From NCBI GenBank assembly GCA_965230395.1, contig CBDDKV010000002.1, positions 1,920,947 through 1,984,946 of the forward strand: a DNA stretch of 64,000 nucleotides, given 5' to 3'. Both the position numbers and the translations under genes were made by a program. This document shows positions 38,253 through 64,000 of this stretch, one piece after another (position 1 is the stretch's first letter; every line of letters begins with the position of its first letter). The notes beneath the pieces were generated by a model. That model was not told the origin of the DNA. It did no database searches and was given only the letters and a program-made list of their open reading frames with translations. Source of the DNA: Bacteroidales bacterium. Its GTDB lineage: Bacteria; Bacteroidota; Bacteroidia; Bacteroidales; UBA10428.

Positions 38253-38744
38253 AGTTATAAATATCGTATTGTATATTATTATCTCATTTCTTTATTTCTA
38301 CAAGGTACGGTTTGCAAAGCGTAGCCATAGCTACGGCGAAAAACTTTAACACAGCAGAAAGGAAAAAGAAGGGTGAAATATGAAATGTTATTTTGTGATC
38401 GCACTACTAGAGGGCCTGAGAAAGTATTATAGGGCCTGTAAGCCAAAAGAATACCTTTTTGAAGCACCAGGCAAGAAGTACGGTGCAGAAAGTGTAGCAA
38501 AAATAGTTGTCCGTACAGCGCGTAAAGCAGGGATAACAAAGAAGGTTACCCTCCCCCCCATACCCTGCGGCACAGTTTTACTACACACCTGCTTGAAGCA
38601 GGCGTTAACCTAAGGGGTATTCAAGTACTGCTTGGGCACAATTCAACAAAGGGCAGAGAGATATACACACATGTAGCAAGCCATACAATTCAGAATATAA
38701 TAAGTCCATTGGAATTCTTATATTTGAAAGAAAACAAACAATAA
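38253..38744 (+). pseudogene. tyrosine recombinase relic (5'-truncated, at least two frameshifts), same strand as the cassettes
   Basis: Frame 0 (38277-~38400) reads IISFLYFYKVR...TQQKGKRRVKYEMLF. Frame 1 (~38400-38558) reads [54 protein letters not shown]. Frame 0 from 38559 reads [54 protein letters not shown], with the stop at 38742-38744. This gives box I Arg, KGK, HxLRH, LLGH and the Tyr in YTHV. The second frameshift lies in a C7 run (38553-38559). There is no ORF for an N-terminal domain upstream. Confidence 0.8.
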
Positions 38745-38768
38745 ACGACAAAACGGTTCGATGAAAGG

Positions 38769-38811
38769 AAAATACCATTACCTTTTTTAAAAGTTATGCT
38801 ATTTTGTTGTT
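38769..38811 (+). repeat. attI-like junction motif ending in G|TT
   Basis: AAAATACCATTACCTTTTTTAAAAGTTATGCTATTTTGTTGTT lies immediately 3' of the recombinase relic. Near-identical copies end at 50449, 59332 and 61316. Sequence diverges completely right after the GTT in all four. Confidence 0.65.
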
Positions 38812-38846
38812 AGCATGCATTAGAAAACAGTACCCTCCCTAAATAT

Positions 38847-40106
38847 ATGGAAACAAAGATTAAAGATAATATTGATAATCCAGAGCAACTTGAAAAGTTG
38901 TATCGAGCTGATAAGAAAGGATTTCAAAAAGCATTCTTCAGTATTTATAGCGAGATTGCGGATTTTAAAATGGCGGACTTTTGGAAAGCAAGATTAGAAT
39001 TTAATTTCCAAAGTGATTCCAAGATAAATGTGGAAAAGAGTGATGTTTTATTCCTAATAATTACCTGTTTAATAACTGGATTCTTAGTTAAAATACCACA
39101 ACTTTTTGATATTAAACTAAATGATTATTTCTACTACGAAAAGAATGCTGGATTAATAATATTATTGGGATTATCTGCATATTCATTCCTTACAAAAAAA
39201 CAGATAAACTTTAAGCATCTGATAACTTCAGTTGTGGTGTTTAGTTTTTCTGCTATCTATATAAATCTTTTACCTTCTGACAGAGATAGCCATTCGATTA
39301 ATCTAGCATATATACATTCGCCTTTACTCTTGTGGTGTTTGTATGGATTGGTTTTTATTGACTTTGACACAAAAGACAAAACAAAACGAATTGATTACAT
39401 AAAATACAATGGAGATATTGCGATTCTTACAGCAATAATATTAATTGCTGGGGGGATTCTTACTGGTGTAACACTTGGATTATTTTCAGCGATTGATTTA
39501 AACATCGAACGTTTTTATTTTGATTACATTGTTGTTCTTGGATTGGCCTCTTCTCCAATTGTTGCAACATATATCGTCAGAAACTTTCAGACAGTAACGA
39601 ATAAAATTGCTCCGATTATTGCAAGTATATTCAGCCCTCTGGTGTTGATTACTTTGATAATATACTTGGTAAGCATTTTATTAACAGGCAAAGACCCATA
39701 TAATGACAGAGATTTCTTGATTGTTTTCAATATTATGCTTTTAGGAGTAATGGCAATTATAGTATTCTCATTTTCAGAGACATCAGTGAACAAAAAACAG
39801 AGATTTAACGAACTGACATTATTTGTTTTAGCAACCGTAACACTGATAGTTGATTTAGTTGCATTATCAGCTATTTTATACCGACTTGGGGAATTTGGCT
39901 TTACTCCTAATAGGACTGCTGTTTTGGGTTCTAATCTTTTGATTTTTGGAAACCTCGTTTTGATAATGATTGATTTATATAAAGTTGGTTTTAAAGGAAA
40001 AGAGATTAAATCTGTTGAATTGACTATTGCAAGATATTTGCCAGTTTACACAGCTTGGACGATTTTTGTGACATTTGGATTACCGTTTATATTTGGTTTG
40101 AAGTAG
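38847..40106 (+). CDS. cassette 1: polytopic membrane protein, unknown function
   Basis: 419 aa. A soluble N-terminal ~55 aa is followed by about 10 hydrophobic helices. No motif is recognised. Confidence 0.75.
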   Translation: METKIKDNIDNPEQLEKLYRADKKGFQKAFFSIYSEIADFKMADFWKARLEFNFQSDSKINVEKSDVLFLIITCLITGFLVKIPQLFDIKLNDYFYYEKNAGLIILLGLSAYSFLTKKQINFKHLITSVVVFSFSAIYINLLPSDRDSHSINLAYIHSPLLLWCLYGLVFIDFDTKDKTKRIDYIKYNGDIAILTAIILIAGGILTGVTLGLFSAIDLNIERFYFDYIVVLGLASSPIVATYIVRNFQTVTNKIAPIIASIFSPLVLITLIIYLVSILLTGKDPYNDRDFLIVFNIMLLGVMAIIVFSFSETSVNKKQRFNELTLFVLATVTLIVDLVALSAILYRLGEFGFTPNRTAVLGSNLLIFGNLVLIMIDLYKVGFKGKEIKSVELTIARYLPVYTAWTIFVTFGLPFIFGLK

Positions 40107-40113
40107 GTATAAC

Positions 40114-40197
40114 GCATGCTAACACTTAGAATATAATAAATCATTCATTGCCCAAAAAAGTCCCGGCAAGGACTCAAAATGATTGATTATATTCGTT
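40114..40197 (+). repeat. attC-like site, short type (cassette 1)
   Basis: GCATGCTAAC (40114-40123) is the exact reverse complement of the cassette start GTTAGCATGC (38809-38818). The arms GAATATAATAAATCATT and AATGATTGATTATATTC match at 16/17. The central hairpin is AGTCC-CGGCAA-GGACT. The site ends in G|TT at 40195-40197. Confidence 0.75.
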
Positions 40198-40230
40198 GTT
40201 GAACGGAACCGGGAGAAACGGGCCAACACT

Positions 40231-40371
40231 ATGGGGATTGATATTGGGACGTTTGGTATTTTAGGTATCATCATCATCATCGTATGGGCAAAAAATCAAG
40301 GTTTAATTAATAAACCATTAAAAAAACAGGGACAAATCAGCTTCAATGTATTAATTAACAGTTGGTTTTGA
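40231..40371 (+). CDS. cassette 2: possible 46-aa single-TM peptide
   Basis: The ATG at 40231 lies after the G|TT junction, whereas the track start at 40183 lies inside the attC-like site. The sequence is MGIDIGTFGILGIIIIIVWAK.... It is a small ORF with weak support. Confidence 0.3.
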   Translation: MGIDIGTFGILGIIIIIVWAKNQGLINKPLKKQGQISFNVLINSWF

Positions 40372-40426
40372 CCTGTTATGTTGTCAACAGGACGTACCTT
40401 TCCCATTATGCCTATGGAGGCATTTG

Positions 40427-40876
40427 TTACATAGGGATTGGTTGGCCTGTTTGTGTGGGTATAACATCAGGGCTTCCCCTGATAAGAGGTCTAAAAGAGG
40501 CAATACGCCGCATGGTGCCACATTTGCATTTAGGGCATTGATCGTGGGGGTGGCCAAAAAGCAAAACAAACAATTCCTGCCAGGGAATACCTTTTTTAGA
40601 TTCGGGCGCAACGGCACCCAAAGCTTCCCGGATGATAGCCAAACAGCTACCTTTCTTACAAGAACTGAAAATTCCATAGTGTCGGACCTTCATAAATCCG
40701 GGCGGAAGAATGTGCATTGACAGCCTTCGGAGGAATTCAAAGAAAGACAGGGACATTACGCCAATCCTGGAGTTTTTATAGTTGGGCCACGAAAAGTATA
40801 CGTTATCACCATCAATACCTTTAATGCGATGGTTACTAATAGCCACCCTGTGTGAGTACCTGGACAAATAATCCAA
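40427..40876 (-). pseudogene. IS91-family (Y2 HUH) transposase, C-terminal fragment only
   Basis: It reads YLSRYSHRVAISNHRIKGIDGDNVYFSW...FEFLRRLSMHILPPGFMKVRHYGIFSS and ends at its native stop. The N-terminal ~60 percent, including the HUH and zinc-binding parts, is absent. Confidence 0.75.
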
Positions 40877-41276
40877 ATATCCTGGAGTTTTCTAATAAGT
40901 ATTCATAAGTCCATAATCCATAAAACTTTTTGCCCGGAATTTTTGGCTGGATCAGCGATATTTTCATGGACGGTCAAGGCTAAATGTTTACACAATAAAA
41001 ATACTTGATTAAGATAATTGCACCCTTCGGTGGTTTAGCTTGCAAAAACATATAAGGCGTGCCCCATCCAACCGTATAAGTAATAACCCCTACTATATGT
41101 TTTATACAAAAAAAGCCGGAAAGCCAAATGGACCGTTCCTTTACAACCATTTTTATAACTTTATGCTAAAAATAGGGTGAAAAGCATACAACGTTATGTA
41201 AAATTCATTGCAAAACATTGTAATGCAACAAATTTTACACTTGTTATTGTACACATGCTAAAAAAATATACTGCAT

Positions 41277-42224
41277 ATGAAAAAACACATAATGATTTTT
41301 ATAATTGCTCTTTTTGCACTAAGCTGTTCATCAGATGGACAAAAGAGTAAAACTGACACTAAAGAGCAGATTAAGAAATACCAAGTGGATTCAAAACAAA
41401 ATAGGGAGACCATTTCTGATTCTGATGCGATTTCTCTAAAATGGAAACTTAAACCAGATGAGACAATTGGTTATAAGACCGCAATGGAGCAAGTTGAGAG
41501 TTCTGATTTTGAAATTGACTTCGGTGACGACAAAAATATGCCCAAAGAGGAGTTTAAAGATATATTCGATGGACTAAAAAAGGAATTCGAAAAAACTTCA
41601 TTTATTACGACAATGCAATGGAATGATAGAGGGAATATTGAGACAAAAATGTTTGCTGAAGGCTTCAATGACGAAGAAACCAAACCTATTGACCCTAAAA
41701 ATTTCAATCCTGCGAGCATGATGAAAGGAGTTATGCTAAGAGGAGAAATAAATGAAAGTGGACAAATTGAAAGTTTCTATTTAAAAAACGCACAGAAAAA
41801 TTTGATAGCTATGTATTTTGAGTTACCAAACAAGCCAGTAAAAATTGGTGATACATGGAATTTAAATGTAAGCTTTCTACAATATGACCAATCTTTTGTT
41901 TGCAAATCAGCTGACAGGACAAATGATGTTGAGTTGATAGATGTACTCAAGGACAAAAATGATACGATTGTAGTTTTTAAATATAATATCTATGAGTCAG
42001 CAAGTGGATACATGAAAAACCCTATGACTAATGAAAAGATTGAGAGTTCACTATCAATGAGCTTTAATGGTATTGCTGAATTTTCAGTAAGCAAAGGGCG
42101 TTGGATAAATTATAACGGAATTATAGAAACGATTCAGAAAGGAATGATGTCTGGGAGTAGCAAACAGAAACTTGCATTGATACCATTCGATAATCTGACA
42201 AAAGAAATGATAAACATTGAATAA
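41277..42224 (+). CDS. cassette 3: lipoprotein, unknown function
   Basis: It has a lipoprotein signal (MKKHIMIFIIALFALSC). The cassette start GTTATTGTACAC (41243-41254) is complementary to GTGTACAACAA (42231-42241) just after the stop. Confidence 0.75.
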   Translation: MKKHIMIFIIALFALSCSSDGQKSKTDTKEQIKKYQVDSKQNRETISDSDAISLKWKLKPDETIGYKTAMEQVESSDFEIDFGDDKNMPKEEFKDIFDGLKKEFEKTSFITTMQWNDRGNIETKMFAEGFNDEETKPIDPKNFNPASMMKGVMLRGEINESGQIESFYLKNAQKNLIAMYFELPNKPVKIGDTWNLNVSFLQYDQSFVCKSADRTNDVELIDVLKDKNDTIVVFKYNIYESASGYMKNPMTNEKIESSLSMSFNGIAEFSVSKGRWINYNGIIETIQKGMMSGSSKQKLALIPFDNLTKEMINIE

Positions 42225-42230
42225 CAGCCA

Positions 42231-42295
42231 GTGTACAACAAAGAACTAAGGTAAAAACCAAGTAAATTTCCCATAATTTTTCTTTTCGAACTACC
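42231..42295 (+). repeat. left part of attC-like site of cassette 3 (interrupted by IS110-family element)
   Basis: The first box is GTGTACAAC. The left arm CTAAGGTAAAAACCAAGTAAATTTC is the imperfect complement of the right arm GAAATCACTTATGTTTTCTTATA at 43686-43708. The right edge is approximate. Confidence 0.55.
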
Positions 42296-42330
42296 TGAGT
42301 TTTTGGGGAGGCAGATTCGAAAAGGAAAAA

Positions 42331-43299
42331 TTATTTTGTTGGTACTACTGACCTGAACTCTGGACTATACAGTACACCTGATTTGGCAATTGCCAAGGAC
42401 TGAGACAAGAGTTTATTGGGCACAGCAATCAGTGCAAGCTTTTTAGGCTTACCTTTATTCACCAGCCTTTCATACAGATCTCTAAATTGTTGATTGCTAT
42501 GGCAAGCAGTAAAGCTGCACATAAATAAGTGATTTCGAATTAAAGGATTACCTCTTTTTGATATTCTGGGTTTTCCCCTTACACTTGTTCCAGATGCCGT
42601 GATGACTGGTGAAAGGCCAAAGAAGGCCGATAGCTGTCCGGAGCTTTCAAATGATTGAAAACCATTGGTACAAACAATGAGCATAATCGCTGTCTTTTTA
42701 CCAATCCCTGGGATTGGTAAAAGATTGGTCAATAGCTCTTTTTCGTGCTCTTTTATTTGCTCTTCCAGCTCCTTTTCAAGTAACTTAATCTCGGAGTTGA
42801 TTTGACGAATTTGGCGTTTTAAAGATGTTATAATCCGTCCTTTGCCCCCTTTGTCAATAAAGCTATGTAGTTTGTTTTTAAGGGCGGTGTTTTGCTTAAA
42901 AAACAAACTTATTGTCGTATGTAAGTCTTTACAGTCATTAATATATTTAGGTAATGGTTTCCATCGGCTAATACTCTGCTCTTGGGCATATTTTACTATC
43001 ATTTTGGCGTCACTTTTATCCGTTTTATTATGCTGTAATTTCATTTGGATAAAGCGTTTAATTACCAATGGATTTATAACAGGGACATTAACCTGGTTCT
43101 CATGAAGGAATACAGCAAGCCGATGATAATAACTTCCGGAGTATTCCATAACACACCAGCTATTTGAATCAATTAGCAATAAGAACTCATAAAATCCATC
43201 TGAGGTATTCTTGAACTTTCTATGTCCCAGCTTAATACTCCAAACATCAAAAACCTTTTTTGAAATGTCAATACCAATAAAATGTGTATTTTTATTCAT
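42331..43299 (-). CDS. IS110-family (DEDD) transposase
   Basis: It reads MNKNTHFIGIDISKKVFDV...MEYSGSYYHRLA (RuvC-like DEDD N-domain) and has a C-terminal Transposase_20-type domain (IPGIGKKTAIMLI...SGTSVRGKPRISKRGNPLIRNHLFMC). The start is set at the ATG at 43299. Confidence 0.9.
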   Translation of the reverse strand: MNKNTHFIGIDISKKVFDVWSIKLGHRKFKNTSDGFYEFLLLIDSNSWCVMEYSGSYYHRLAVFLHENQVNVPVINPLVIKRFIQMKLQHNKTDKSDAKMIVKYAQEQSISRWKPLPKYINDCKDLHTTISLFFKQNTALKNKLHSFIDKGGKGRIITSLKRQIRQINSEIKLLEKELEEQIKEHEKELLTNLLPIPGIGKKTAIMLIVCTNGFQSFESSGQLSAFFGLSPVITASGTSVRGKPRISKRGNPLIRNHLFMCSFTACHSNQQFRDLYERLVNKGKPKKLALIAVPNKLLSQSLAIAKSGVLYSPEFRSVVPTK

Positions 43300-43341
43300 G
43301 ATAATTAATTTGTAAAGAACGATGCTACTTTGATATAGCAA

Positions 43342-43522
43342 CCTAAAAACAGGCTCTGCCCCCCAGAGAACTAATCGTATTTAAGTAGCGAAAGAGTGGT
43401 AATTTTCATTGTTGACTAGCTTTATGCTTTATGTATAAATTAATCTTGTCCCACTCTTCCGTTCTTTTAATTTTATTATGAAAATAAGAAATTGCAAACT
43501 TAGGATGTATAAAAAACATAAG
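43342..43522 (-). ncRNA. candidate IS110 bridge (guide) RNA region in the left end of IS #1
   Basis: This is the noncoding left end upstream of the transposase. It has the stem AGAGTGG / CCACTCT around a ~50-nt loop and the hairpin CTCTG-GGGGG-CAGAG. The relic copy at 63.6 kb changes TAA to TGG on one side and gains CCA on the other, lengthening the same stem. Assignment as a bridge RNA is by analogy only. Confidence 0.35.
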
Positions 43523-43639
43523 TGGATCAGTGGTTTACGGAAAGTTGGCACATTTACTCAGCTCCGCCAACCTTTAGCTCACGACCAAAGGGAGTAAATC
43601 TGCGATTTGACGGGTTGTTTTAAAAAAGTAAATTTGTGT

Positions 43640-43714
43640 CAAAACGCAAATTTGGCTCAGTGCAAATTGACAGGTATGAGCTTCGAAATCACTTATGTTT
43701 TCTTATATTCAACA
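43640..43714 (+). repeat. right part of long-type attC-like site (S4)
   Basis: TTGACAGGTATGAGCTTCGAAATCACTTATGTTTTCTTATATTCAAC follows the family consensus TTGATAGGT..GAGCTTCGAAAT + ~24 nt. About 115 nt between the IS end and this arm are unresolved. Confidence 0.55.
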
Positions 43715-43773
43715 TTTTACGCCATATAAACGGCCATGGTGCAATAAAATAAACTGATTTAGAGGAAAAATTA

Positions 43774-44352
43774 ATGAAAATATACCGCTTCATATTTATT
43801 ATCACGTTTCTAGTTCTTTCTATTTCTTGCGACTTTGCGAAACGGAAGGTAAAAGGAGGAATTAATAAGATTGCCCAAGAAGCAGGTGAATTTGTTGATG
43901 AATTTTTGACACTGCCTGACAGGACTGTGAAACGAGATGTTTTAGACAATGAATTATACGGGGAATGGATTTTAACAGGACAATCTTTGAAGTATCTAAA
44001 TAAACAACAAACTGATTATCCAGACTGGGAAAGCATAACTTACCCTTCGCTGAGATTTGAATTAAAGGAGAATAAAACTGTTGATGCTTGGATTTATAAA
44101 AAGTATCTGCCTATTTCATTTTTTAAATATCATGTAACAGTAAATGACTCTGCAGTAATATCAGGCAAATGGACAATAGGAAAAGATTCATACAATGTTG
44201 ATACAGCTTCGACTTATAAGAACAAACTCTTTTTGGATTTTAATATAAATGCAATTGTCAGCCTTGATATTGCCGAACAAGACGGGAAAATAATATTATG
44301 GTCATATATTGGTGACCCTGACGATTTGTACTATCAAGAGTACAAAAGATAG
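43774..44352 (+). CDS. cassette 4, gene 1: lipoprotein, unknown function
   Basis: It has a lipoprotein signal (MKIYRFIFIITFLVLSISC) and is 192 aa. Confidence 0.7.
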   Translation: MKIYRFIFIITFLVLSISCDFAKRKVKGGINKIAQEAGEFVDEFLTLPDRTVKRDVLDNELYGEWILTGQSLKYLNKQQTDYPDWESITYPSLRFELKENKTVDAWIYKKYLPISFFKYHVTVNDSAVISGKWTIGKDSYNVDTASTYKNKLFLDFNINAIVSLDIAEQDGKIILWSYIGDPDDLYYQEYKR

Positions 44353-44376
44353 ACAAATATCTTAGGAGATAAGACC

Positions 44377-44667: not shown

Positions 44668-44670
44668 TAC

Positions 44671-46533: not shown

Positions 46534-46554
46534 TCATGATAAAAACATCGTACT

Positions 46555-56701: not shown

Positions 56702-56866
56702 TTGCAACCCACACCGTCCCTTCGCTGCAAGGCACATTGGCAAAACGCACAAAGCCAACACTTCAACCAAATTTTGCCAAAGAGCCTTTTCGCCCGTCCT
56801 GCTCCAACGCAGGACAGAGAGACAGTGCAAACTTGATAGGTATATTGATTGAGATAATAACCGCCA

Positions 56867-57002: not shown

Positions 57003-57031
57003 CGCATTTTGGCAGACCGTGAAATAATAAA

Positions 57032-57778: not shown

Positions 57779-57784
57779 AAAACA

Positions 57785-57918
57785 ACGCTACAACAAAAAA
57801 TATACGTAATGCGGGGTGATATGATTAAATTTAAGCTTAATACATTTATTAAACCAAATATTGGTTTGATAGTTTGGAGCTTTGAATTTCCTCGCTACTT
57901 ATATTCAAGTAGTTATCA
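57785..57918 (+). repeat. attC-like site, long type (S5)
   Basis: The left arm is CTACAACAAAAAATATACGTAATGCGGGG and the right arm is CCTCGCTACTTATATTCAAGTAG. The centre ACATTTATTAAACCAAATATTGGTTTGATAGTTTGGAGCTTTGAAT is homologous to S2 and S3. The junction G|TTATC is at 57912. Confidence 0.7.
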
Positions 57919-57951
57919 GTAAGCTAAATTGAGTGATAAAATGAAATATGT

Positions 57952-58866
57952 ATGAAAATAAAAATAGCAACAAGTCAGTTTTCTGTTAGTTCTAATATTC
58001 GAGAGAATAAAAGGAAAATAATTGTTCAGATTAGTGAGGCAAAGAAATCTGGAGCACAACTAATACATTTTCCTGAAGGAAGCTTATCTGGATATGCTGG
58101 AATAGATTTTGACTCATTTAAGGAATTTGACTGGAAAGAATTGAATGTTTCGACACAAGAGATCATCCTAGAAGCAAAGAGCAGAGGGATGTGGATTATA
58201 CTTGGTTCTGCACATAGACTTGAAAATCATAAGCCACATAATTGTTTGTATATAATTGATAGTAAGGGATTTATTGTGGATAGATATGACAAAATGTTCT
58301 GTGCTGGAACTGATAAAGAAAATACCGAAGATTTATTACATTTTTCACCGGGTGATCATTTTACAACATTTGAAGTTTTTGGAATTAAATGCGGGGTTTT
58401 GATTTGCCATGAGTATAGATATCCTGAGTTGTACAGGGAGTATAAGAAAAAGGATGTAGAAATTATGTTTCACTCATATCATGCTGGAAATATGGATGCT
58501 ATACGACAATCCAGTATGGAATCAGAAGTTGGGGAGGAATTTTTCGCTTTCAATAATGGAAGGACAATACCTGAAATTACAATGCCTTCGACAATGATCT
58601 CATATGCTGCAAACAATTACATGTGGATAAGTTGTAGCAATACTTCAGCCCAGGAAAGCTGCTGGGCGAGTATGATAGTCAGACCTGATGGTGTTGTTTC
58701 AGGAAAACTTGATAAAAATAATGATGGAATACTTATCACTGAAATTGACACAGACAAACGATATTATGATTCAACAAAACATTGGAGAAATAGAGCTATG
58801 GATGGACTTTTTCATAGTGGTAGTTTAGTTGATGATAAGAGGTCGAAAAATAGAAATGAAATTTAA
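57952..58866 (+). CDS. carbon-nitrogen hydrolase (nitrilase superfamily) protein
   Basis: Glu, Lys and Cys triad contexts are present: LIHFPEGSLSGY, VDRYDKMF and CGVLICHEYRYPELY. Confidence 0.8.
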   Translation: MKIKIATSQFSVSSNIRENKRKIIVQISEAKKSGAQLIHFPEGSLSGYAGIDFDSFKEFDWKELNVSTQEIILEAKSRGMWIILGSAHRLENHKPHNCLYIIDSKGFIVDRYDKMFCAGTDKENTEDLLHFSPGDHFTTFEVFGIKCGVLICHEYRYPELYREYKKKDVEIMFHSYHAGNMDAIRQSSMESEVGEEFFAFNNGRTIPEITMPSTMISYAANNYMWISCSNTSAQESCWASMIVRPDGVVSGKLDKNNDGILITEIDTDKRYYDSTKHWRNRAMDGLFHSGSLVDDKRSKNRNEI

Positions 58867-58872
58867 AACCGC

Positions 58873-58991
58873 ACACCTGATTTGGCAATTGCCAAGGACT
58901 GGGACAAGAGTTTATTGGTCACAGCAATCAGTGCAAGTTTTTTGTCTGAAGCAAAGCGGGTTTAATTCTTTTAGCCAATAAGTCATAAGTG
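58873..58991 (-). mobile_element. internally deleted relic of IS110-family element #1
   Basis: 58873-58943 matches 42373-42443, the transposase 3' coding region that includes the palindrome TTGGCAATTGCCAA. The relic ends in ...CATAAG|TGG, the same terminus and junction as at 43517-43525. It abuts the nitrilase stop codon, so that cassette has no attC-like site. Confidence 0.55.
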
Positions 58992-59332
58992 GGTTGCTGA
59001 GTGGAACAAAAACCGGAACTTCAGGCTGAAGCATTTCAAAAAGCAGGTTCGAAGCAAAACTTTCCGGCTTTATAAACTAACATTAAACAGGAGTTGCAAA
59101 AAATAACGCAAACAGGGCTGGCCGGTTTTGAAGGAAATAAAAAAATATATACATTAGGTACGTTTAATAAAACACAGAAGGCATCAACAGCTGAATATAA
59201 GCATTTGCCAATTTATTACAAAAGCCTGGAGAGCTTATGTGACAGATTACCATAGATATTAACAAAATTCTACTTTGAAATGTATAGAAGAAATATCATT
59301 GCCTTTTTTAAAAGTTATGCTATTTTGTTGTT
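58986..59332 (+). repeat. noncoding module B (5'-truncated copy)
   Basis: It is homologous to module A from 50102 onward. It ends in ...TTTTAAAAGTTATGCTATTTTGTTG|TTGTGCTGC. Confidence 0.85.
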
Positions 59333-59389
59333 GTGCTGCATGCGAAGACATAGGCTCGTGACTATTAAACCGATTGATTATAAAAATTA

Positions 59390-59881
59390 ATGGAAAAATT
59401 CATTGAAATACTTGATAGTCCGATTTCATTAATTATTGGTGGGATAACGATGATTTTTGGAATAATTTTTCCGTTTAGAATTGCACTGATAAATTATAAA
59501 AAAGCAAAAGAAAGTAAATGTTGGTCAATGACCTCTGGATTGATTACAAAATCTAATATCAATTGTTACAAGGATAATGAAGGCACAAAAATGTATAAAC
59601 TAGATTTTGAATATTCATACCAGATTAATAATAAACAATATTTTTCAAAAGGCAGATTTTTAGATGAAGAGTACGGACAAAGTTGGATTGGAAAGCTACA
59701 ATATTTTGTGGACAATAATCAGATAAATCAAAATATCAAGGTGTATTATGACCCAAGAAAACCTGAAAAGTCTGTGGTAATTAAAGGATTAAAACCAAGA
59801 TACTATTTAATGATTTCGGTTTACTTTATTCTTATAGTATCCGGAGTTATATTGATTTCAATAGGACTAAATAAAATTTGA
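59390..59881 (+). CDS. DUF3592-like membrane protein
   Basis: An N-terminal TM helix and a C-terminal TM helix flank a beta-rich core with FEYSYQINNKQYFSKGRF...IKVYYDPRKPEKSVV, a pattern typical of DUF3592. Confidence 0.65.
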   Translation: MEKFIEILDSPISLIIGGITMIFGIIFPFRIALINYKKAKESKCWSMTSGLITKSNINCYKDNEGTKMYKLDFEYSYQINNKQYFSKGRFLDEEYGQSWIGKLQYFVDNNQINQNIKVYYDPRKPEKSVVIKGLKPRYYLMISVYFILIVSGVILISIGLNKI

Positions 59882-59898
59882 AAAAGTAAAAAGCACTA

Positions 59899-60030
59899 CA
59901 GCACACACAATGTGTATAATTCATAAGGGGTTCAGTAGTTTGCGAACAATATCACTCGCATCAATTTTTGGTAGTAATTTGATAGGTTTAAAGCTCGCAA
60001 TCCCTTACGAAATCAAAAACTCAACTTGGT
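59899..60030 (+). repeat. attC-like site, long type (S6)
   Basis: The first box CAGCACACAC is complementary to the cassette start GTTGTGCTG (59330-59338) with a one-nt bulge. The left arm ATTCATAAGGGGTT pairs with AATCCCTTACGAAAT. The motif TTTGATAGGTTTAAAGCTCGCAAT is present. The junction lies near 60025. Confidence 0.65.
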
Positions 60031-60047
60031 AACAGATTACCTCAGCA

Positions 60048-60238
60048 ATGAAACCAATCAATAAAGATTAATATTGTGCATGTTGTGGTTATGACACATA
60101 TGATAAATTAGTATATTACAATTGTCCAATTTGTTTTTGGGAGGATGATCCATTCCAATTGAGGACGATGATTTTACCAATGGTGCAAATAATGTTTCAT
60201 TAAAGACAGGTCAAGAGAATTTTGAGAGATTTGATTAG
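60048..60238 (+). pseudogene. CPCC-family cysteine-rich protein, disrupted
   Basis: It reads MKPINKD-stop(60069)-YCACCGYDTYDKLVYYNCPICFWEDDPFQL. After a 1-nt frameshift near 60160 it continues EDDDFTNGANNVSLKTGQENFERFD-stop. Confidence 0.6.
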
Positions 60239-60341
60239 GAATTGCAGAAAACCAAACAACGAGGACAATAGAAAACCAAATTGGACTGATTGAAATAATT
60301 AAAGAATAACTTCAAGGACCAATTATTAATAAATAGATTTC

Positions 60342-60836
60342 ATGTTTAAGATATTTAAAAAGCAAAAAAAAGACAAGCAATTTGATAGTTTCGATAAACC
60401 AAGATTTGATGAGAAGATTCAATCAGAACAGTTGATTTACTCAAGGCCATCTGATGATTTCTACAATGATTTATTGGAGTTATTAATCCCAAGCTTTTTT
60501 AATGAATCAAATCCAATTCATAAAAAGTTTGATGAGGAGTTTAGAAGTAATATCTCTGAATTATCCATTCTATTTAATGATATATTAGAAAGTGGACTCC
60601 AAACTGATACAATTGATAAGTTTTATTTGAGAATAGAGCATCTAGCCAAAAAGGAAAGAGAGGTCCCATTTATAACTTCACAAACATTATTGTACTGGTA
60701 TCATTTTATTCAAAATATTAAGATTGAGGTAAGTTCAAGAATTGGCGATAATGCCATAAACAAGTGTGATATTCTATCTGATAAGATTAAGCAATTGTTT
60801 GAGGATTTTAGAAAAAAAAACAGCCATAAAAAATAA
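60342..60836 (+). CDS. hypothetical protein
   Basis: 164 aa, predicted soluble and helical, with no motif recognised. Confidence 0.55.
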   Translation: MFKIFKKQKKDKQFDSFDKPRFDEKIQSEQLIYSRPSDDFYNDLLELLIPSFFNESNPIHKKFDEEFRSNISELSILFNDILESGLQTDTIDKFYLRIEHLAKKEREVPFITSQTLLYWYHFIQNIKIEVSSRIGDNAINKCDILSDKIKQLFEDFRKKNSHKK

Positions 60837-60842
60837 CGTGTG

Positions 60843-61316
60843 CCAATGAATAAGACTACGAGCGGTCGGCACGGCCCGGCGATGCGTCCCGGTTGAACTG
60901 CATCCAGGTTACTACAACCCTATTCGTATTTTACTAAACGATATTGTTGCAGGAAGATTGACCTGGGCAACGTAAGTGGGTTGCTGAGTGGAACAGAAAC
61001 CGGGACTTCAGGCTGAAGCATTTCAAAAAGCAGGTTCGAAGCAAAACTTCCCGGCCTTATAAACTAACATTAAACAGGAGTTGCAAAATAACGCAAATAG
61101 GGCTGACCGGTTTTGAAGGAAATAAAAAAAACATACATTAGGTACGTTTAATAAAACACAGAAGGCATCAACAACCGAATATGAGCGTTTGCCAATTTAT
61201 TACAAAAGCCTGGTGAGCTTATGTGTCAGATTACCATAGATGTTAACAAAATTCTACTTTGAAATGTATTGAAGAAATATCATTACCTTTTTTAAAAGTT
61301 ATGCTATTGGGTTGTT
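60843..61316 (+). repeat. noncoding module C (full-length copy)
   Basis: It is collinear with module A and has a 12-nt insertion near its 5' end. It ends in ...TTTTAAAAGTTATGCTATTGGGTTG|TTGCAGC. Confidence 0.85.
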
Positions 61317-61419
61317 GCAGCTAATGCCAAGAAAGAGAGCAGTGCGGAGATAAACACCACTATTCTCATTAAATACGCGGGGAATAATTTGTATATTTAC
61401 CGCATAATGATAAAAGTTT

Positions 61420-62529
61420 ATGGCAAAATATATCTATGAATATGACAACTGGCCAGAATTCACCTGGGATAACAAGAGGGTTGTTGTGACCTTAGGGAAA
61501 GTTCGTCATCTGCAAGGAAAGATTTTAGGACAAATGAGTGCACTTGGTTTTTCAATAAAAGAGGAAACAATTTTATCTGCTTTGACACTTGATGTTTTGA
61601 AATCTTCTGAGATAGAAGGTGAATTTCTAAATCAAGAACAAGTTCGCTCTTCAATAGCAAGAAGACTTGGTTTGGGTTATGCAGGCATTGTTCATGTTGA
61701 CAGGAATGTGGAAGGAGTTGTAGAAATGATGCTTGATGCAACACAAAGATATGATGCAATTCTTGACCATGAACGAATTTTTGGCTGGCATGCAGCCTTA
61801 TTTCCTACAGGTTGGAGTGGAATGCATCGGATTGACACAGGATGTTATCGTGATGGAGAAATGCAAGTTGTATCAGGTCCGATGGGAAAAGAAAAAATAC
61901 ATTTTCAAGCTCCTTCAGCTAAAGTGGTTCAAAAGGAAATGGACGCGTTTTTAAACTGGCTTAACAAAGAAACTGATATAGATGGTGTTCTAAAAGCAGC
62001 AATTGCACACTTTTGGTTTATAATAATCCACCCTTTCGATGATGGAAATGGACGTATTGCCAGAGCAATATCAGACATGTTACTTGCTCGTTCAGAGGAA
62101 AGTTCTCAGAGATTTTATAGCTTATCGGACCAGGTTCTAATTGAGAAAAAAAAATATTATGAGATATTGCAAAAAGTTCAGCATAGCTCTTGTGATATAA
62201 CTGATTGGTTGGATTGGTTTTTAAATTGTTTGTTTCGTGCATTGGAGAACACAGAAGAAACATTGAAACGAGTGCTGAAAAAAGCAGACTTTTGGGATAA
62301 AAACAAAGAGACAATTCTGAATAGTAGGCAAAGATTAATATTGAACAAATTATTTGATGGATTTGATGGCAAATTAAAATCATCTAAATGGGCTAAGATT
62401 ACTAAATGTTCAGCTGATACTGCACTAAGAGACATAAAAGATTTGATTGATAAAGGAATTTTAAAACAAGAAGAATCAGGTGGCCGAAGCACAAATTACG
62501 AATTAACGGAAGAATGGAGAATGCACTAG
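61420..62529 (+). CDS. Fic-family protein
   Basis: The Fic motif HPFDDGNGRIARA is present, preceded by the long N-terminal helical domain common in ~370-aa Fic proteins. A C-terminal winged-helix-like tail follows. Confidence 0.9.
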   Translation: MAKYIYEYDNWPEFTWDNKRVVVTLGKVRHLQGKILGQMSALGFSIKEETILSALTLDVLKSSEIEGEFLNQEQVRSSIARRLGLGYAGIVHVDRNVEGVVEMMLDATQRYDAILDHERIFGWHAALFPTGWSGMHRIDTGCYRDGEMQVVSGPMGKEKIHFQAPSAKVVQKEMDAFLNWLNKETDIDGVLKAAIAHFWFIIIHPFDDGNGRIARAISDMLLARSEESSQRFYSLSDQVLIEKKKYYEILQKVQHSSCDITDWLDWFLNCLFRALENTEETLKRVLKKADFWDKNKETILNSRQRLILNKLFDGFDGKLKSSKWAKITKCSADTALRDIKDLIDKGILKQEESGGRSTNYELTEEWRMH

Positions 62530-62707
62530 TGTCAAGTCAATTCTCGATTGACGGATGGGGTTACTCCCTATCGTCCGTGAGACCGCTAACGTTAAGTTCC
62601 TTCGTCGTGCCTCCTCTGAATGACGTTATAGCGATATTGAGGGACGAAAGAGAAGCAACCGGGGCCATTTTAATGGCAGGGCTCACCTGCCAACGCATGA
62701 CTGAACT

Positions 62708-62860
62708 GACTGCAATAAAGCACGAAACGCTAATGCGCGGTCATAAAACATTGCGCGGATAGTGCTATATTTGTATGAAATAACATTTAATCAACAGCTT
62801 AGCGGGTTGATAAGTTTGTGCTTTGAAATGCGCAATGTTTCATGCCGCAGGCCGTTGTGG
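62708..62860 (+). repeat. attC-like site, long type (S3)
   Basis: The arms GCGGTCATAAAACATTGCGC and GCGCAATGTTTCATGCCGC form a near-perfect inverted repeat. The central hairpin is ATCAAC...GTTGAT and the motif is TTGATAAGTTTGTGCTTTGAAAT. The junction G|TTGTGG is at 62854. A possible first box CTGCAA at 62709 matches the cassette start TTGCAG, but this match is weak. Confidence 0.7.
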
Positions 62861-63044
62861 GCAATAGGGCGAATCACTCCGACAAACTAAAATCATGACA
62901 AATAAACAGATAGAAAAAGATTTTGCAAAAAGTAATACAGACTGATTAATAAATTTATAACACTTAATAAACTACTAAAAGACAAGATTAATATTAATAA
63001 ACGGAGAATCAATTAAAATCATAAATCACATCGAAATTAAGAAA

Positions 63045-63530
63045 ATGAAAAACTTTGCAATTATTTTAAGCATTTTGACAATATGTTTATCCAACACTTT
63101 TGCACAAACTGAGAATGATTCAATTACTATAAAAAAAGTATTTGGAGGGTATCAATTTTATCAAGGAGAGCAAAGGCTTAACATGAATAAACTGGTTAAT
63201 ACAATGAAACCAAATGAGGAAGCCTATAAGCAAATTAAATCAGCTCAATCAACTTATACAATGGCAACGATTTTTAGTTGTGCAGGTGGGTGTATGGTTG
63301 GTTGGCCACTTGGAACCGCAATGGGTGGGGGTGAACCTAACTGGATAATGGCTGGTATTGGAGCAGGTCTGATTGTTGTGACAATTACGATTAGTCAGAG
63401 TTTTAACAAAAAAGCAAAACAAGCTGTTGACACTTTTAATGGAGGATTACAGACATGTTCGTTTTGGGATAAAAATGAACTTAACTTAACAATGACAGGA
63501 AATGGAATTGGGCTGACTTTGAACTTCTAA
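63045..63530 (+). CDS. secreted/membrane glycine-zipper protein, unknown function
   Basis: It has a signal peptide (MKNFAIILSILTICLSNTFAQ) and a Gly-rich hydrophobic region (GGCMVGWPLGTAMGGGEPNWIMAGIGAGLIVV). Confidence 0.65.
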   Translation: MKNFAIILSILTICLSNTFAQTENDSITIKKVFGGYQFYQGEQRLNMNKLVNTMKPNEEAYKQIKSAQSTYTMATIFSCAGGCMVGWPLGTAMGGGEPNWIMAGIGAGLIVVTITISQSFNKKAKQAVDTFNGGLQTCSFWDKNELNLTMTGNGIGLTLNF

Positions 63531-63545
63531 TAAGTACTGCCTAAT

Positions 63546-63714
63546 TATTGTATGTAAGTCTTTACAGTCATCGTATTTAAGTAGCGAAAGAGTGGTGGTT
63601 TTCATTGTTGACTAGCTTTATGTATAAATTAATCTTATCCCACCACTCTTCCATTCTTTTAATTTTATTATAAAAACAAGAAATTGCAAACTTAGGAGGT
63701 ATAAAAAACATAAG
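63546..63714 (-). mobile_element. internally deleted relic of IS110-family element #1 that retains the left-end noncoding region
   Basis: 63548-63572 matches 42911-42936, which is internal transposase coding sequence. It is joined directly to a copy of 43370-43522, the whole left-end noncoding region ending ...AAAAAACATAAG. Confidence 0.75.
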
Positions 63715-63741
63715 AACGTACTACAAAATAAATAATATGAT

Positions 63742-64000
63742 ATGAAAAGATTATTTTACGGATTTCTGATTTTAATAATTGCAGGATGCGGACAGCAAAA
63801 TTCTAGTAATGATTCCAAGGATTTAAAATTTTCGTGGGATTTTAGTAAACCTCAAAAGTTGATTTACTCATATTCTCAGACTGTCAACAATGAGAATAAA
63901 ATGAGACGTGATGAGCCAGCCGACAAAACTTATATGACAGCAATTGGAAACCTTAATATTAAGATTAAGGAGAATAACTTAGCTGATTTGAGTTTGACAA
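63742..64000 (+). CDS. lipoprotein, unknown function (3' end off-window)
   Basis: The ATG at 63742 gives MKRLFYGFLILIIAGC, a lipobox signal. The frame stays open to the window edge. It is not in the supplied ORF track because no stop codon is reached. Confidence 0.6.
   Translation, partial: MKRLFYGFLILIIAGCGQQNSSNDSKDLKFSWDFSKPQKLIYSYSQTVNNENKMRRDEPADKTYMTAIGNLNIKIKENNLADLSLT

What the first reader, a model, noticed from the sequence alone, without database searches (positions are those of the whole stretch)
38253..64000. Integron-type gene-cassette array in a Bacteroidota-like chromosome
From 38.8 kb onward every credible non-IS ORF is on the plus strand. The ORFs are functionally unrelated, the sequence is visibly more AT-rich than 1-38 kb, and the ORFs are separated by imperfect palindromes ending in G|TT.

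The decisive observation is that a cassette's first nucleotides are the reverse complement of the first box of the site at its own 3' end:
- GTTAGCATGC (38809) versus GCATGCTAAC (40114), 10/10.
- GTTAGGCAC (50447) versus GTGCCTGAC (56867), 8/9 plus one G-T.
- GTTATTGTACAC (41243) versus GTGTACAACAA (42231).
- ATTTTACGCC (43714) versus GGCGTACAC (44671).
- GTTGTGCTG (59330) versus CAGCACACAC (59899).

This is the known footprint of circular cassettes linearised between G and TT of the R' core (5'-GTTRRRY), where R'' pairs with R'. I am not aware of integrons being a well-described feature of Bacteroidota, and I cannot verify that here.
Basis: partly seen in the sequence, partly recalled or inferred. 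Interest (0 to 1): 0.88.

Follow-up and report, generated by a model that had tools for sequence, protein, structure and literature searches.

The report
Bacteroidota integron-like gene cassette array
This 26-kb stretch is a gene-capture array built like an integron, but its recombinase (broken here) belongs to a Bacteroidota family lacking the domain that defines integron integrases, so it may be an overlooked second kind of integron.

Summary
From 38.8 kb to the window end lies an AT-richer, plus-strand array of unrelated ORFs separated by imperfect palindromes.

Evidence that the ORFs are cassettes:
- Cassette starts are complementary to the first box of their own 3' site.
- A 99%-identical strain diverges exactly at G38809|TT and carries different cassettes.
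- Orthologues of the 2014-aa cassette in two other genomes become homologous exactly at G|TT (50447/50448).
- The palindrome stem shows compensatory covariation and two conserved G·T wobbles on the bottom strand only.
- A covariance model finds 7 sites at E<0.01 in 40-63 kb, all in the ORF orientation, and none in 1-38 kb.

- The array is headed by a 5'-truncated, frameshifted tyrosine recombinase pseudogene (38380-38745) plus a 40-bp attI-like site.
- Full-length relatives (~375-400 aa) sit in the same orientation at the head of clean arrays in Flavobacteriaceae, Winogradskyella, Aquiflexum and several MAGs.
- These relatives lack the IntI-specific domain and carry an extra N-terminal domain.

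Verdict: an integron-type array that is not a canonical IntI integron. It is a decayed member of an apparently undescribed Bacteroidota variant. The catalytic role of the recombinase is inferred, not shown.

The parts
38380..38745 (+). Tyrosine recombinase pseudogene. Only the C-terminal ~115 aa survive, with a frameshift in a C7 run at about 38552.
   Evidence: Pfam Phage_integrase, E=1.6e-16. tblastn shows that only residues ~270-375 of full-length relatives are present. The homopolymer is C7 here and C5 in strain L001. There is no IntI insertion: NCBIfam XerA_Arch aligns contiguously, while integrase_gron matches only model positions 241-313.
38770..38809 (+). attI-like site, AAATACCATTACCTTTTTTAAAAGTTATGCTATTTTGTTG. 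The crossover is inferred between G38809 and T38810.
   Evidence: Identity with strain L001 (99%) stops at 38811, and different cassettes follow. The site lies 64 nt after the recombinase stop, as in L003, L004, L005, L008 and L043.
38810..40201 (+). Cassette 1: DUF4153-like membrane protein (ORF 38847-40106) and its attC-like palindrome (40114-40201, right-hand core G at 40195).
   Evidence: Start and first box are 10/10 complementary. The hairpin has z about -2.9. Pfam match. This cassette is absent from strain L001.
40196..41249 (+). Cassette-like segment holding an IS91-family Y2 transposase fragment (40427-40876, minus strand). It ends in a short 60-nt attC-like site (41183-41249, G at 41243).
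   Evidence: Pfam Y2_Tnp. CM R1 scores 21.1 bits, E=0.0055. The same site core, 95% identical, sits behind different ORFs with a different first box in L086 at 22736-22797.
41244..42300 (+). Cassette with a 315-aa lipoprotein ORF (41277-42224). Its first box is at 42231-42241, and the site is interrupted by an IS110 element.
   Evidence: Complementarity to its own start is 10/11 with a 3-nt offset.
42300..43505 (-). IS110-family insertion sequence (transposase 42331-43341), inserted in a recombination site.
   Evidence: Pfam DEDD_Tnp_IS110 and Transposase_20. It is absent at this place in L001, where homology resumes at 43506.
43494..44806 (+). A long attC-like site (43494-43724), followed by a two-ORF cassette (192 aa at 43774-44352; YggL-like at 44377-44667) and its attC-like site (44665-44806, G at 44797).
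   Evidence: CM R1 gives 25 and 81 bits. The cassette is shared with L001 at 99.4% identity but has different neighbours there. The right half of the 44665-44806 site differs from the L001 copy, so the site is a hybrid.
44810..46540 (+). Second IS110-family element (transposase 45148-46527), inserted about 12 nt after a cassette start (GTTAGGGCACAT).
   Evidence: Pfam match. The same cassette start, GTTAGGGCAC, occurs in L085 at 16283.
46555..49967 (+). Five plus-strand ORFs (124, 252, 181, 116 and 247 aa) with no recognisable site of the family between them. A 2 x ~266-bp tandem duplication lies at 48289-48752.
   Evidence: No CM hit was found in this stretch. The stretch is absent from the related strain.
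49986..50447 (+). Non-coding ~450-bp repeat, copy 1. Its last 40 bp (50408-50447) are an internal copy of the attI-like site.
   Evidence: Repeat families D1-D3 and D7 and the alignment. It does not fold end to end, has no Rfam match, and has no relative outside this lineage.
50448..57005 (+). 6.5-kb cassette: a 2014-aa alpha-2-macroglobulin/TonB-plug-like protein (ORF 50657-56701) and its attC-like site (56863-57005, first box at 56866, right-hand G at 56996).
   Evidence: Pfam match. CM R1 scores 121.6 bits. Orthologues in L084 and L085 become homologous at 50448 and 50447, and in L049 directly after a recombinase.
56997..57921 (+). Cassette with a 248-aa SUFU-like ORF (57032-57778) and its attC-like site (57782-57921, G at 57912).
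   Evidence: CM R1 scores 101.6 bits. The first box ACGCTACAAC matches the cassette's own start 7/10.
57913..58985 (+). CN-hydrolase cassette (ORF 57952-58866). Its 3' site is replaced by an IS110 fragment (58868-58943).
   Evidence: Pfam CN_hydrolase. Repeat D8 matches 42369-42444.
58986..59330 (+). ~450-bp repeat, copy 2 (5'-truncated), ending in the attI-like site (59291-59330).
   Evidence: In the related strain a DDE_5 IS sits inside this repeat.
59331..60037 (+). DUF3592 cassette (ORF 59390-59881) and its attC-like site (59897-60037).
   Evidence: CM R1 scores 84 bits. The cassette is absent from the related strain.
60038..61316 (+). Segment with a 164-aa ORF (60342-60836), followed by ~450-bp repeat copy 3 (60844-61316). 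The attI-like end is at 61275-61316.
   Evidence: The segment 59333-61136 is missing in the related strain.
61317..62863 (+). Fic/DOC (DUF4172) cassette (ORF 61420-62529) with its attC-like site (62722-62863, G at 62854).
   Evidence: Pfam match. CM R1 scores 129.5 bits. The site is 76% identical to L023:16100-16258 in another genome's array.
62855..64000 (+). Further cassettes: a 161-aa ORF (63045-63530), an internally deleted IS110 remnant (63541-63714), and an ORF that runs off the window.
   Evidence: repeats D9, D11, D15, D16. The related strain has different cassettes after the Fic cassette.

Best explanation
The region is the head and first ~25 kb of a chromosomal, integron-type gene-cassette array of a kind found in Bacteroidota.

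Intact platform (seen in relatives):
- A ~375-400-aa tyrosine recombinase gene reads in the same direction as the cassettes.
- An attI-like site lies 40-130 nt after its stop codon.
- Cassettes of one to three ORFs follow, each ending in a 60-240-nt imperfect palindrome (first box YYYAAC, spacer, long stem, spacer, GTT).

Inferred mechanism:
- Cassettes move as circles opened between G and TT. This is why a cassette's first bases pair with the first box of its own 3' site.
- The site is probably used as a folded bottom strand, because its stem carries conserved G·T wobbles that are A·C mismatches on the top strand.
- The cognate recombinase is the adjacent XerA/IntI-related enzyme. It lacks the IntI-specific domain and has an extra ~100-aa N-terminal domain.

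State of this window:
- The recombinase is a dead fragment.
- The array is riddled with IS110, IS91 and other IS debris.
- The array also holds three internal copies of the attI-like site.
- Recent cassette turnover relative to a sister strain must therefore have been catalysed in trans or arisen by homologous recombination.

Shown: the architecture, the junctions, the covariation and the association with the recombinase. Inferred: catalysis by this recombinase, single-strand folding, and expression by read-through transcription.
For: Junctions:
- Strain L001/L086 is 99% identical up to G38809-TT, then carries different cassettes. Shared cassettes recur with different neighbours.
- The 2014-aa cassette sits in two other genomes inside all-plus-strand arrays of at least 26 kb with different neighbours. 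Homology begins at 50447/50448.
- In L049 the same cassette start follows a recombinase directly.

Recombinase:
- The full-length relative from L004 scores XerA_Arch 234.9 bits (above the cut-off). It scores TIGR02249 integron integrase 215 bits (below the cut-off), in two stretches.
- Against VchIntIA (PDB 2a3v), 19 residues replace 62.
- There is only one tyrosine recombinase per locus.

Arrays in relatives:
- Clean cassette chains follow the recombinase in L004 (at least 6 cassettes), L005 (at least 5), L008 (at least 4), L010 (2) and L085 (3).
- The start/first-box signature is enriched over background.

Recombination sites:
- The 17-bp stem has 88% of cells paired against 65% in shuffles (0/500 shuffles as good), with 38 double-change cells.
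- Two G·T wobbles are conserved in 9 of 10 sequences on the bottom strand only.
- The bottom strand folds better than the top in 20 of 23 sites, p=0.0017.
- The covariance model built from this lineage hits 35 of 35 sites in one orientation. It independently recovers the chain-defined sites of L004, L005, L008, L010 and L043.
- The model gives no hit with E<0.1 in window 1-38 kb.
Against: - No recombination was observed; everything is comparative.
- The local recombinase is a pseudogene in both strains, and no intact copy was seen in the window.
- IntegronFinder's attC model and intI profiles could not be run. A canonical IntI elsewhere in the ~6.7-Mb genome is therefore not excluded.
- Several window cassettes match their own first box only 5-7 out of 10.
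- The stretch 46.5-50 kb has no recognisable sites.
- Stems of orthologous cassettes' sites differ between genomes, whereas classical cassettes normally keep their attC.
- The internal attI-like/450-bp modules are unexplained.
- The bottom-versus-top energy comparison used RNA parameters as a proxy for DNA G·T pairs.
Confidence: 0.78

Rival explanations
1. It is an ordinary CALIN, a cluster of canonical attC sites lacking an integrase. It would have been assembled by a true IntI encoded elsewhere in the genome or since lost. The neighbouring XerA-like recombinase would be unrelated to cassette movement.
For: - The sites have the canonical core logic (YYYAAC ... GTT, crossover at G|TT).
- The local recombinase is dead, yet cassette content differs between near-identical strains.
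- CALINs are common, and half occur in genomes without IntI (PMC4889954).
Against: - In at least 10 Bacteroidota loci the array starts 40-130 nt after the stop codon of this recombinase family, always in the same orientation.
- No second tyrosine recombinase lies within about 10 kb in those loci.
- Complete IntI-type integrons are reported as almost absent from Bacteroidetes (PMC9024848).
Confidence: 0.13
2. The palindromes are transcription terminators or REP-like elements between co-directional genes. The strain differences would come from IS activity and homologous recombination between repeats, not from site-specific cassette movement.
For: - Many IS elements and repeats are present.
- One site is a hybrid whose halves join in the conserved loop.
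- The 59333-61136 difference between strains can be explained by recombination between two 450-bp repeats.
Against: - Breakpoints fall exactly at G|TT in four independent comparisons.
- The first box pairs with the cassette's own start (9.6/10), not with the adjacent sequence (5.2/10).
- The conserved wobbles lie on the antisense strand, so an mRNA hairpin is not what is conserved.
- No run of T follows the hairpins.
Confidence: 0.05
3. The array was built by IS91/ISCR-type rolling-circle transposition, with the tyrosine recombinase as an IS91 accessory gene.
For: - An IS91 Y2 transposase fragment lies at 40427-40876.
- From my own recollection, some IS91 members carry an upstream integrase gene.
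Against: - The fragment is on the opposite strand and sits inside one cassette-like segment.
- In L002-L005, L008 and L010 the recombinase is followed by cargo ORFs, not by a Y2 transposase.
Confidence: 0.02

Closest known systems
Sedentary chromosomal integrons (for example the Vibrio cholerae superintegron; IntI plus attI plus attC cassettes)
   Same: - Long one-directional arrays of unrelated, mostly short-leadered ORFs.
- Each cassette ends in an imperfect palindrome with YYYAAC/GTT cores.
- The crossover lies between G and TT.
- A cassette's start is complementary to the first box of its own site.
- Sites within a lineage resemble each other.
- There is a bottom-strand folding signature.
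- IS elements are embedded in the array.
   Different: - The associated recombinase lacks the IntI-specific additional domain (19 versus 62 residues against VchIntIA).
- It has an extra N-terminal ~100 aa.
- It reads in the same direction as the cassettes, with attI after its stop codon.
- In this lineage the loop of the site is conserved and the stem varies.
- Strand asymmetry is carried by fixed G·T wobbles.
- One cassette is 6.5 kb long.
Integrons with a co-oriented integrase (Spirochaetota 'reverse' integrons; archaeal integrons)
   Same: The recombinase and the cassettes share one orientation. The attI lies immediately downstream of the recombinase gene, as described for archaeal integrons in PMC9668308.
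   Different: Those integrases are reported to keep the IntI-specific domain (PMC9668308). This family does not.
[quoted passage not shown]
   Same: In this window there is an array of attC-like sites and no functional integrase. IS elements lie in and around it, as described for CALINs (PMC4889954).
   Different: A recombinase pseudogene and an attI-like site are still present at the head of the array, but the pseudogene is not of the IntI type. Whether IntegronFinder's attC model scores these sites was not tested.
Xer/dif-type modules (pdif modules of Acinetobacter plasmids, IMEX elements). Comparison from my own knowledge.
   Same: Gene modules are moved by a Xer-like tyrosine recombinase that has no IntI insertion.
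   Different: Those systems use 28-bp double-stranded dif-like sites. Here the sites are 60-240-nt hairpins with covarying stems, and cassettes show a circular-permutation signature.
Delta-attI-type cassettes of class 1 integrons (PMC12901181)
   Same: Copies of an attI-like sequence occur inside a cassette array, at the 3' end of a unit.
   Different: Here the attI-like 40 bp is the end of a ~280-450-bp non-coding repeat of unknown nature. Its origin by attI recombination was not shown.

Membership tests
Canonical integron | An intI gene: a tyrosine recombinase carrying the IntI-specific additional domain around patch III. | tested here: not met
   - The window holds only a C-terminal pseudogene fragment with no insertion.
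- Full-length relatives score below the TIGR02249 cut-off (215 versus 265 bits), with model positions ~198-239 missing.
- Against PDB 2a3v, 19 residues replace 62.
Canonical integron | An attI site next to the integrase gene, where cassettes are inserted with the crossover at G|TT. | tested here: met
   - The strain comparison breaks at G38809|TT, 64 nt after the recombinase stop.
- The same layout is seen in L002-L005, L008, L010, L011, L023, L043, L045 and L049.
Canonical integron | attC sites: imperfect palindromes with R'' RYYYAAC and R' GTTRRRY, at the 3' end of each cassette and in one orientation. | tested here: met
   - Curated sites are listed.
- Stem covariation is shown.
- 35 of 35 CM hits lie in one orientation.
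- Deviations in this window: GAC, CAC or AAT in the first box, and GTA or ATT in the right-hand core.
Canonical integron | A cassette's first bases are complementary to the R'' of its own attC (circular-cassette footprint). | tested here: met
   - 9.6/10 for the cassette's own start versus 5.2/10 for the next start, in 19 cassettes of relatives.
- In the window: 10/10, 8/10 plus a wobble, and 10/11 with an offset; other cassettes score 5-7/10.
Canonical integron | Recombination of the folded bottom strand, with extrahelical bases that direct strand choice. | tested here: inconclusive
   - The bottom strand folds better in 20 of 23 sites.
- Two G·T wobbles are conserved on the bottom strand only, and a bulged base is present in 5 of 10 sequences on the expected arm.
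- Whether these features act like the canonical extrahelical bases is unknown.
Canonical integron | attC sites recognised by the IntegronFinder covariance model. | not testable with these tools
   The model is not in Rfam (no hits), and IntegronFinder is not available here.
Canonical integron | Demonstrated excision and integration of cassettes by the integrase. | not testable with these tools
   This needs an experiment.
CALIN | At least two attC sites clustered with no IntI gene nearby. | tested here: met
   - Seven CM hits at E<0.01 lie between 40 and 63 kb.
- No intact tyrosine recombinase is present in the window.
- This holds only if these sites count as attC.
IS91/ISCR composite | An intact Y2 rolling-circle transposase with its ori/ter ends bounding the captured DNA. 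| tested here: not met
   Only a 149-aa C-terminal fragment is present, on the opposite strand. Related platforms have no Y2 gene.
Xer/dif modules | 28-bp dif-like XerC/XerD binding sites flanking the modules. | tested here: not met
   The boundaries are 60-240-nt hairpins with covarying stems. No repeated dif-like 28-mers were seen in the repeat search.

The most novel reading that the evidence does not exclude
Bacteroidota carry a second lineage of integrons. Its integrase would be a XerA/IntI-related recombinase without the IntI-specific domain, previously thought indispensable for attC recombination, and with a new N-terminal domain. It would be co-oriented with its array. Strand choice on the folded attC would be encoded by fixed G·T wobbles rather than, or in addition to, extrahelical bases. 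Because integron finders require the IntI domain, the whole class has been overlooked, including large (at least 26 kb) sedentary arrays in Marinilabiliales-like genomes.
Probability: 0.5. Interest if true: 0.92.

Novelty: new variant of a known kind. Interest (0 to 1): 0.82.

Why it matters
- Integrons are defined, and searched for, by an integrase with a specific extra domain. On that basis they are reported as almost absent from Bacteroidetes (PMC9024848).
- If these arrays are serviced by a recombinase without that domain, three things follow:
  1. A major environmental and host-associated phylum has a large, unseen gene-capture system.
  2. The view that the IntI domain is necessary for hairpin-site recombination needs revising, which bears on how integrons evolved from Xer-like enzymes.
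  3. A new recombinase/site pair becomes available for cassette engineering.
- Cultured strains with intact platforms exist: Winogradskyella ursingii HL4150, Aquiflexum sp. TKW24L and Alkalitalea saponilacus DSM 24412. The question is therefore directly testable.

Tried and rejected
- **Exact scans for the attI-like 23-mer** in genome and metagenome collections gave 0 hits. The sequence is lineage-specific.
- **Exact-protein look-ups** of three window cassette proteins found nothing on record.
- **First idea: the recombinase fragment is an IS91 accessory integrase.** Rejected. Relatives are followed by cargo ORFs and hairpin sites, not by Y2 transposases.
- **Automatic cassette chaining allowing 2 mismatches** ran off track into coding sequence. 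Only chains with at most 1 mismatch in 10 were kept. The relaxed version on L084 and L085 is reliable only for the first three steps of L085.
- **My own AAC-hairpin-GTT scanner** was not specific: about 100 hits spread over the whole window. It was discarded in favour of a covariance model.
- **The ~450-bp repeat:**
  - It is not an end-to-end hairpin (z = -0.9).
  - It is not an Rfam family, even at E up to 1.
  - It is not a recombinase remnant by tblastn.
  - It has no consistent ORF across copies.
  - It has no relatives outside this lineage.
- **DNA-parameter folding of single sites** did not separate top from bottom strand. The asymmetry only appears when G·T pairs are allowed.
- **Literature searches** found no description of these arrays. 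The library lacks most subscription journals, so prior description is not excluded.

Full report
**1. Checking the observation**

- From 38.8 kb on, the credible ORFs are on the plus strand. The exceptions are an IS110-family transposase (42331-43341) and a fragment of an IS91-family Y2 transposase (40427-40876).
- GC drops from 0.38-0.43 in 1-38 kb to 0.29-0.37 afterwards.
- The ORFs are functionally unrelated. They include DUF4153, a YggL-like protein, a 2014-aa alpha-2-macroglobulin/TonB-plug protein, a SUFU-like protein, a CN-hydrolase, DUF3592, Fic/DOC and many without a family.

Of the five complementarity pairs:
- Pair 1 is 10/10.
- Pair 2 is 8/9 plus one G-T.
- Pair 3 is 10/11, but only with a 3-nt offset.
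- Pairs 4 and 5 share only 6-7 contiguous bases and would not stand alone.

**2. What heads the array**

- At 38380-38745 lies the C-terminal ~115 aa of a tyrosine recombinase (Pfam Phage_integrase).
- It is truncated at the 5' end; only residues ~270-375 of full-length relatives are present.
- It is frameshifted in a C7 run, which is C5 in the sister strain.
- Sixty-four nucleotides after its stop codon the sequence ...TTTTAAAAGTTATGCTATTTTGTTG ends at G38809.
- The same 40-bp sequence recurs three times inside the array (50408-50447, 59291-59330, 61275-61316). Each internal copy is the 3' end of a ~450-bp non-coding repeat and is directly followed by a cassette start.

**3. Comparison with a sister strain**

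A metagenome contig (ENA ERZ25074695, loci L001 and L086) is 98.6-99.4% identical over the flanking chromosome and the shared cassettes.
- Identity runs through G38809-TT and then stops.
  - The sister strain has an IS and a 348-aa ORF.
  - The window has the DUF4153 cassette, an IS91-fragment segment, a 315-aa cassette and an IS110 element.
- The two-ORF cassette (192 aa plus YggL) is shared, but with different neighbours on both sides.
- The block from the 450-bp repeat through the 2014-aa, SUFU-like and CN-hydrolase cassettes is shared.
- The DUF3592 cassette, the 164-aa segment and one 450-bp copy (59333-61136) are absent from the sister strain.
- After the Fic cassette the two strains again carry different cassettes.
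- The short 60-nt palindrome at 41183-41249 recurs in the sister strain at 95% identity. There it sits behind different ORFs, with a different first box and a different following cassette.

**4. The same cassette in other genomes**

The 2014-aa protein has 84-91% identical orthologues in two long contigs (L084, L085).
- There it lies inside all-plus-strand arrays of at least 26 kb of unrelated genes, with different neighbours.
- Nucleotide homology to the window starts at 50448 (L084) and 50447 (L085), exactly at G|TT. It ends just after the first box (56877) or shortly after the stop codon.
- In L084 the cassette starts ATT and its first box ends AAT. The two bases predicted to pair have therefore changed together.
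- In a Prolixibacteraceae MAG (L049), a homologue of the cassette's 5' leader starts at G|TT about 190 nt after a full-length recombinase gene. The upstream sequence is unrelated to the window's.

**5. The recombinase family**

Homologues of the fragment are abundant. A genome scan returned 80 loci.

The full-length Bacteroidota proteins are ~375-400 aa. They have a ~100-aa N-terminal region with no Pfam match, then a SAM_4 core-binding domain, then the catalytic domain.

The L004 protein compares as follows:
- It passes NCBIfam NF040815 ('site-specific tyrosine recombinase/integron integrase', XerA_Arch) at 234.9 bits.
- It scores 215.5 bits on TIGR02249 (integron integrase), below the 265-bit cut-off, and in two stretches that skip the middle of the model.
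- Against the solved VchIntIA structure (PDB 2a3v), residues 280-298 (19 aa) stand where IntI has residues 180-241 (62 aa). The IntI-specific additional domain is absent.
- Its best solved relatives are archaeal XerA proteins.

Smyshlyaev et al. (PMC8138268) noted that the insertion is 'not fully conserved' in their integron-like subgroup. They did not describe arrays for such proteins.

**6. Arrays behind the recombinase in relatives**

In L002, L003, L004, L005, L008, L010 and L043, a small hairpin and a GTT follow the stop codon within 40-130 nt. The 10-mer at that GTT has an exact or one-mismatch reverse complement at the end of the first ORF.

Over all loci with at least 1.2 kb downstream:
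- Exact 10/10 matches occur in nine loci.
- Eight of these are at the expected place, and all eight are among the Bacteroidota loci with about 35% or more identity to L004.
- The background is 22 matches in 3412 GTT positions.

Chaining from cassette to cassette gives:
- at least 6 cassettes in Flavobacteriaceae bacterium S0862 (L004);
- at least 5 in Winogradskyella ursingii (L005);
- at least 4 in a Bacteroidota MAG (L008);
- 2 in Aquiflexum (L010);
- 3 in L085.

The sites in these chains are 56-240 nt long. In these 19 cassettes the first box matches the cassette's own start 9.6/10, but the physically adjacent next start only 5.2/10.

Each locus has only one tyrosine recombinase gene within about 10 kb.

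**7. The recombination sites**

Ten ~135-nt sites from the window, the sister strain, L023, L084 and L085 align well.
- They share a 17-bp stem with compensatory changes in 12 pairs.
- 88% of cells are paired, against 65% in shuffles (0/500 shuffles as good).
- There are 38 double-change cells (0/500).
- Slid-register controls give 29-44% paired.
- On the bottom strand, two positions are G·T in 9 of 10 sequences. On the top strand these are A·C mismatches.
- With wobble-permitting parameters the bottom strand folds better in 20 of 23 curated sites (mean -5.3 kcal/mol, p=0.0017).
- A conserved structure on the antisense strand argues against mRNA terminators. It favours a folded DNA bottom strand, as in integrons.

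A covariance model built from these ten sites (R1) gives the following results:
- In the window it hits 62722-62863, 56863-57005, 57782-57921, 59897-60037 and 44665-44806, and more weakly 43494-43724 and 41180-41255.
- All window hits lie in the ORF orientation, and none with E<0.1 falls in 1-38 kb.
- It finds at least 15 sites in L085 and at least 8 in L084.
- In 984 kb of other loci it hits only Bacteroidota recombinase loci. It recovers the chain-defined sites of L004, L005, L008, L010 and L043, none of which was used to build it.

**8. Mechanism proposed**

Shown:
- the platform layout;
- the G|TT junctions;
- the own-start/first-box pairing;
- the stem covariation;
- the one-strand wobble signature;
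- the consistent association with one recombinase family.

Inferred:
- Cassettes excise as circles and insert at attI by recombination of a folded bottom strand.
- This is catalysed by the adjacent recombinase.
- The N-terminal domain and/or the wobble pattern stands in for the missing IntI domain in site and strand recognition.
- Cassettes are expressed by read-through from upstream.

In this window the recombinase is dead in both strains. The recent turnover therefore needs a paralogue acting in trans or homologous recombination. The conserved loop motif TGATAGGT..GCTTCGAAAT and the 450-bp repeats offer substrates for the latter. One site (44665-44806) is visibly a loop-joined hybrid.

**9. 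What remains odd**

- The ~450-bp modules begin like the first box and left arm of a site belonging to the preceding cassette, and they end in the attI-like 40 bp.
  - They are not hairpins, known RNAs, ORFs or recombinase remnants.
  - They may be fossil heads of fused arrays, attI-type cassette ends like those described for class 1 integrons (PMC12901181), or extra insertion points.
- Stems of the sites of orthologous cassettes differ between genomes while the loops are conserved. This is the reverse of classical attC sites.
- The stretch 46.5-50 kb has five ORFs and no recognisable site.

**10. Comparison with what is known, and novelty**

In architecture this is an integron. The closest described cases are sedentary chromosomal integrons and the co-oriented integrons of Spirochaetota and Archaea, where attI also lies just downstream of intI (PMC9668308).

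It fails the defining integrase criterion, which was tested and not met. In this window it would be filed operationally as a CALIN.

IntegronFinder 2.0 reports only In0 elements and one complete integron (Salinibacter) for Bacteroidetes (PMC9024848). Ghaly et al. list Bacteroidota among phyla with integrons without further detail (PMC8618304).

Seven full-text searches found no description of cassette arrays headed by an IntI-domain-less recombinase in this phylum. That search cannot see most subscription journals.

I therefore rate this a new variant of a known kind, with about even odds that it is both functional as proposed and undescribed.

**11. Source organism**

The window's own copy of the 2014-aa protein is on record on a 6.7-Mb contig. 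The closest named homologues are from Salinivirgaceae, Prolixibacteraceae and other Marinilabiliales.

Noticed in passing
window 42300-43505, 44810-46540, 58868-58943, 63541-63714: Four IS110-family copies or fragments all sit inside or within about 12 nt of a recombination site or cassette boundary. This is reminiscent of the IS1111-attC elements that target integron attC sites. The 17 nt at 43506-43522 belong both to the IS end (compare 63698-63714) and to the uninterrupted site in strain L001.
   Followed up: partly
window 49986-50447, 58986-59330, 60844-61316; L086 9318-9793, 23822-24098: A ~280-450-bp non-coding repeat occurs inside the array, always ending in a copy of the 40-bp attI-like site and directly followed by a cassette start. 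Its nature is unknown. The sister strain has a DDE_5 IS inserted in one copy, with a 5-bp duplication (ATTAG).
   Followed up: partly
window 44665-44806 versus L001 15149-15290: This is a hybrid recombination site. The left half is identical in the two strains, and the right half differs from the conserved loop motif onward. This suggests homologous recombination between site loops.
   Followed up: partly
window 43668, 44751, 56950, 57867, 62808: A conserved loop motif, TGATAGGTnnGnGCTTCGAAAT, sits in the centre of the ~135-nt sites. It occurs on the plus strand only at up to 3 mismatches. The stems around it vary, which is the opposite of classical attC sites. It could be a binding site for a host factor or for the recombinase N-terminal domain.
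   Followed up: partly
window 48289-48752: A tandem duplication of a ~266-bp unit (90-95% identical). Each unit ends in a perfect 8-bp hairpin (CATGAGTGG TGCAA CCACTCATG). It lies between ORFs in the part of the array that has no recognisable sites.
   Followed up: no
window 38549-38556: The homopolymer in the recombinase fragment is C7 in the window and C5 in the sister strain. The ORF is frameshifted here and open there. This may be real variation or a homopolymer sequencing error.
   Followed up: partly
window 50448-57005: This is a 6.5-kb single-gene cassette (2014-aa A2M/TonB-plug protein), far larger than typical integron cassettes. The protein is conserved at 55-91% identity across many Marinilabiliales-like genomes.
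   Followed up: partly
window 60070-60260: An apparent frameshifted remnant of a small zinc-ribbon-type ORF (the translated sequence reads roughly ...CCGYDTYDKLVYYNCPICFWEDDPFQ...) lies upstream of the 164-aa ORF.
   Followed up: no
L022 5681-5819 and 7370-7510; L017 14377 and 16592: In two more distant recombinase loci, the site model or the loop motif hits the opposite strand relative to the recombinase. In L022 the hits are upstream and divergent, as in classical integrons. The family may therefore include other platform layouts.
   Followed up: no
L009 and L010 (recombinase N-termini): Some family members carry two tandem copies of the ~50-aa N-terminal module (pattern W..W.IP), giving proteins of about 460 aa. 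The module has no Pfam match.
   Followed up: no
window 61420-62529: The Fic/DOC protein with an N-terminal DUF4172 is carried as a cassette and is shared with the sister strain. It is a possible toxin or defence-type cargo.
   Followed up: no
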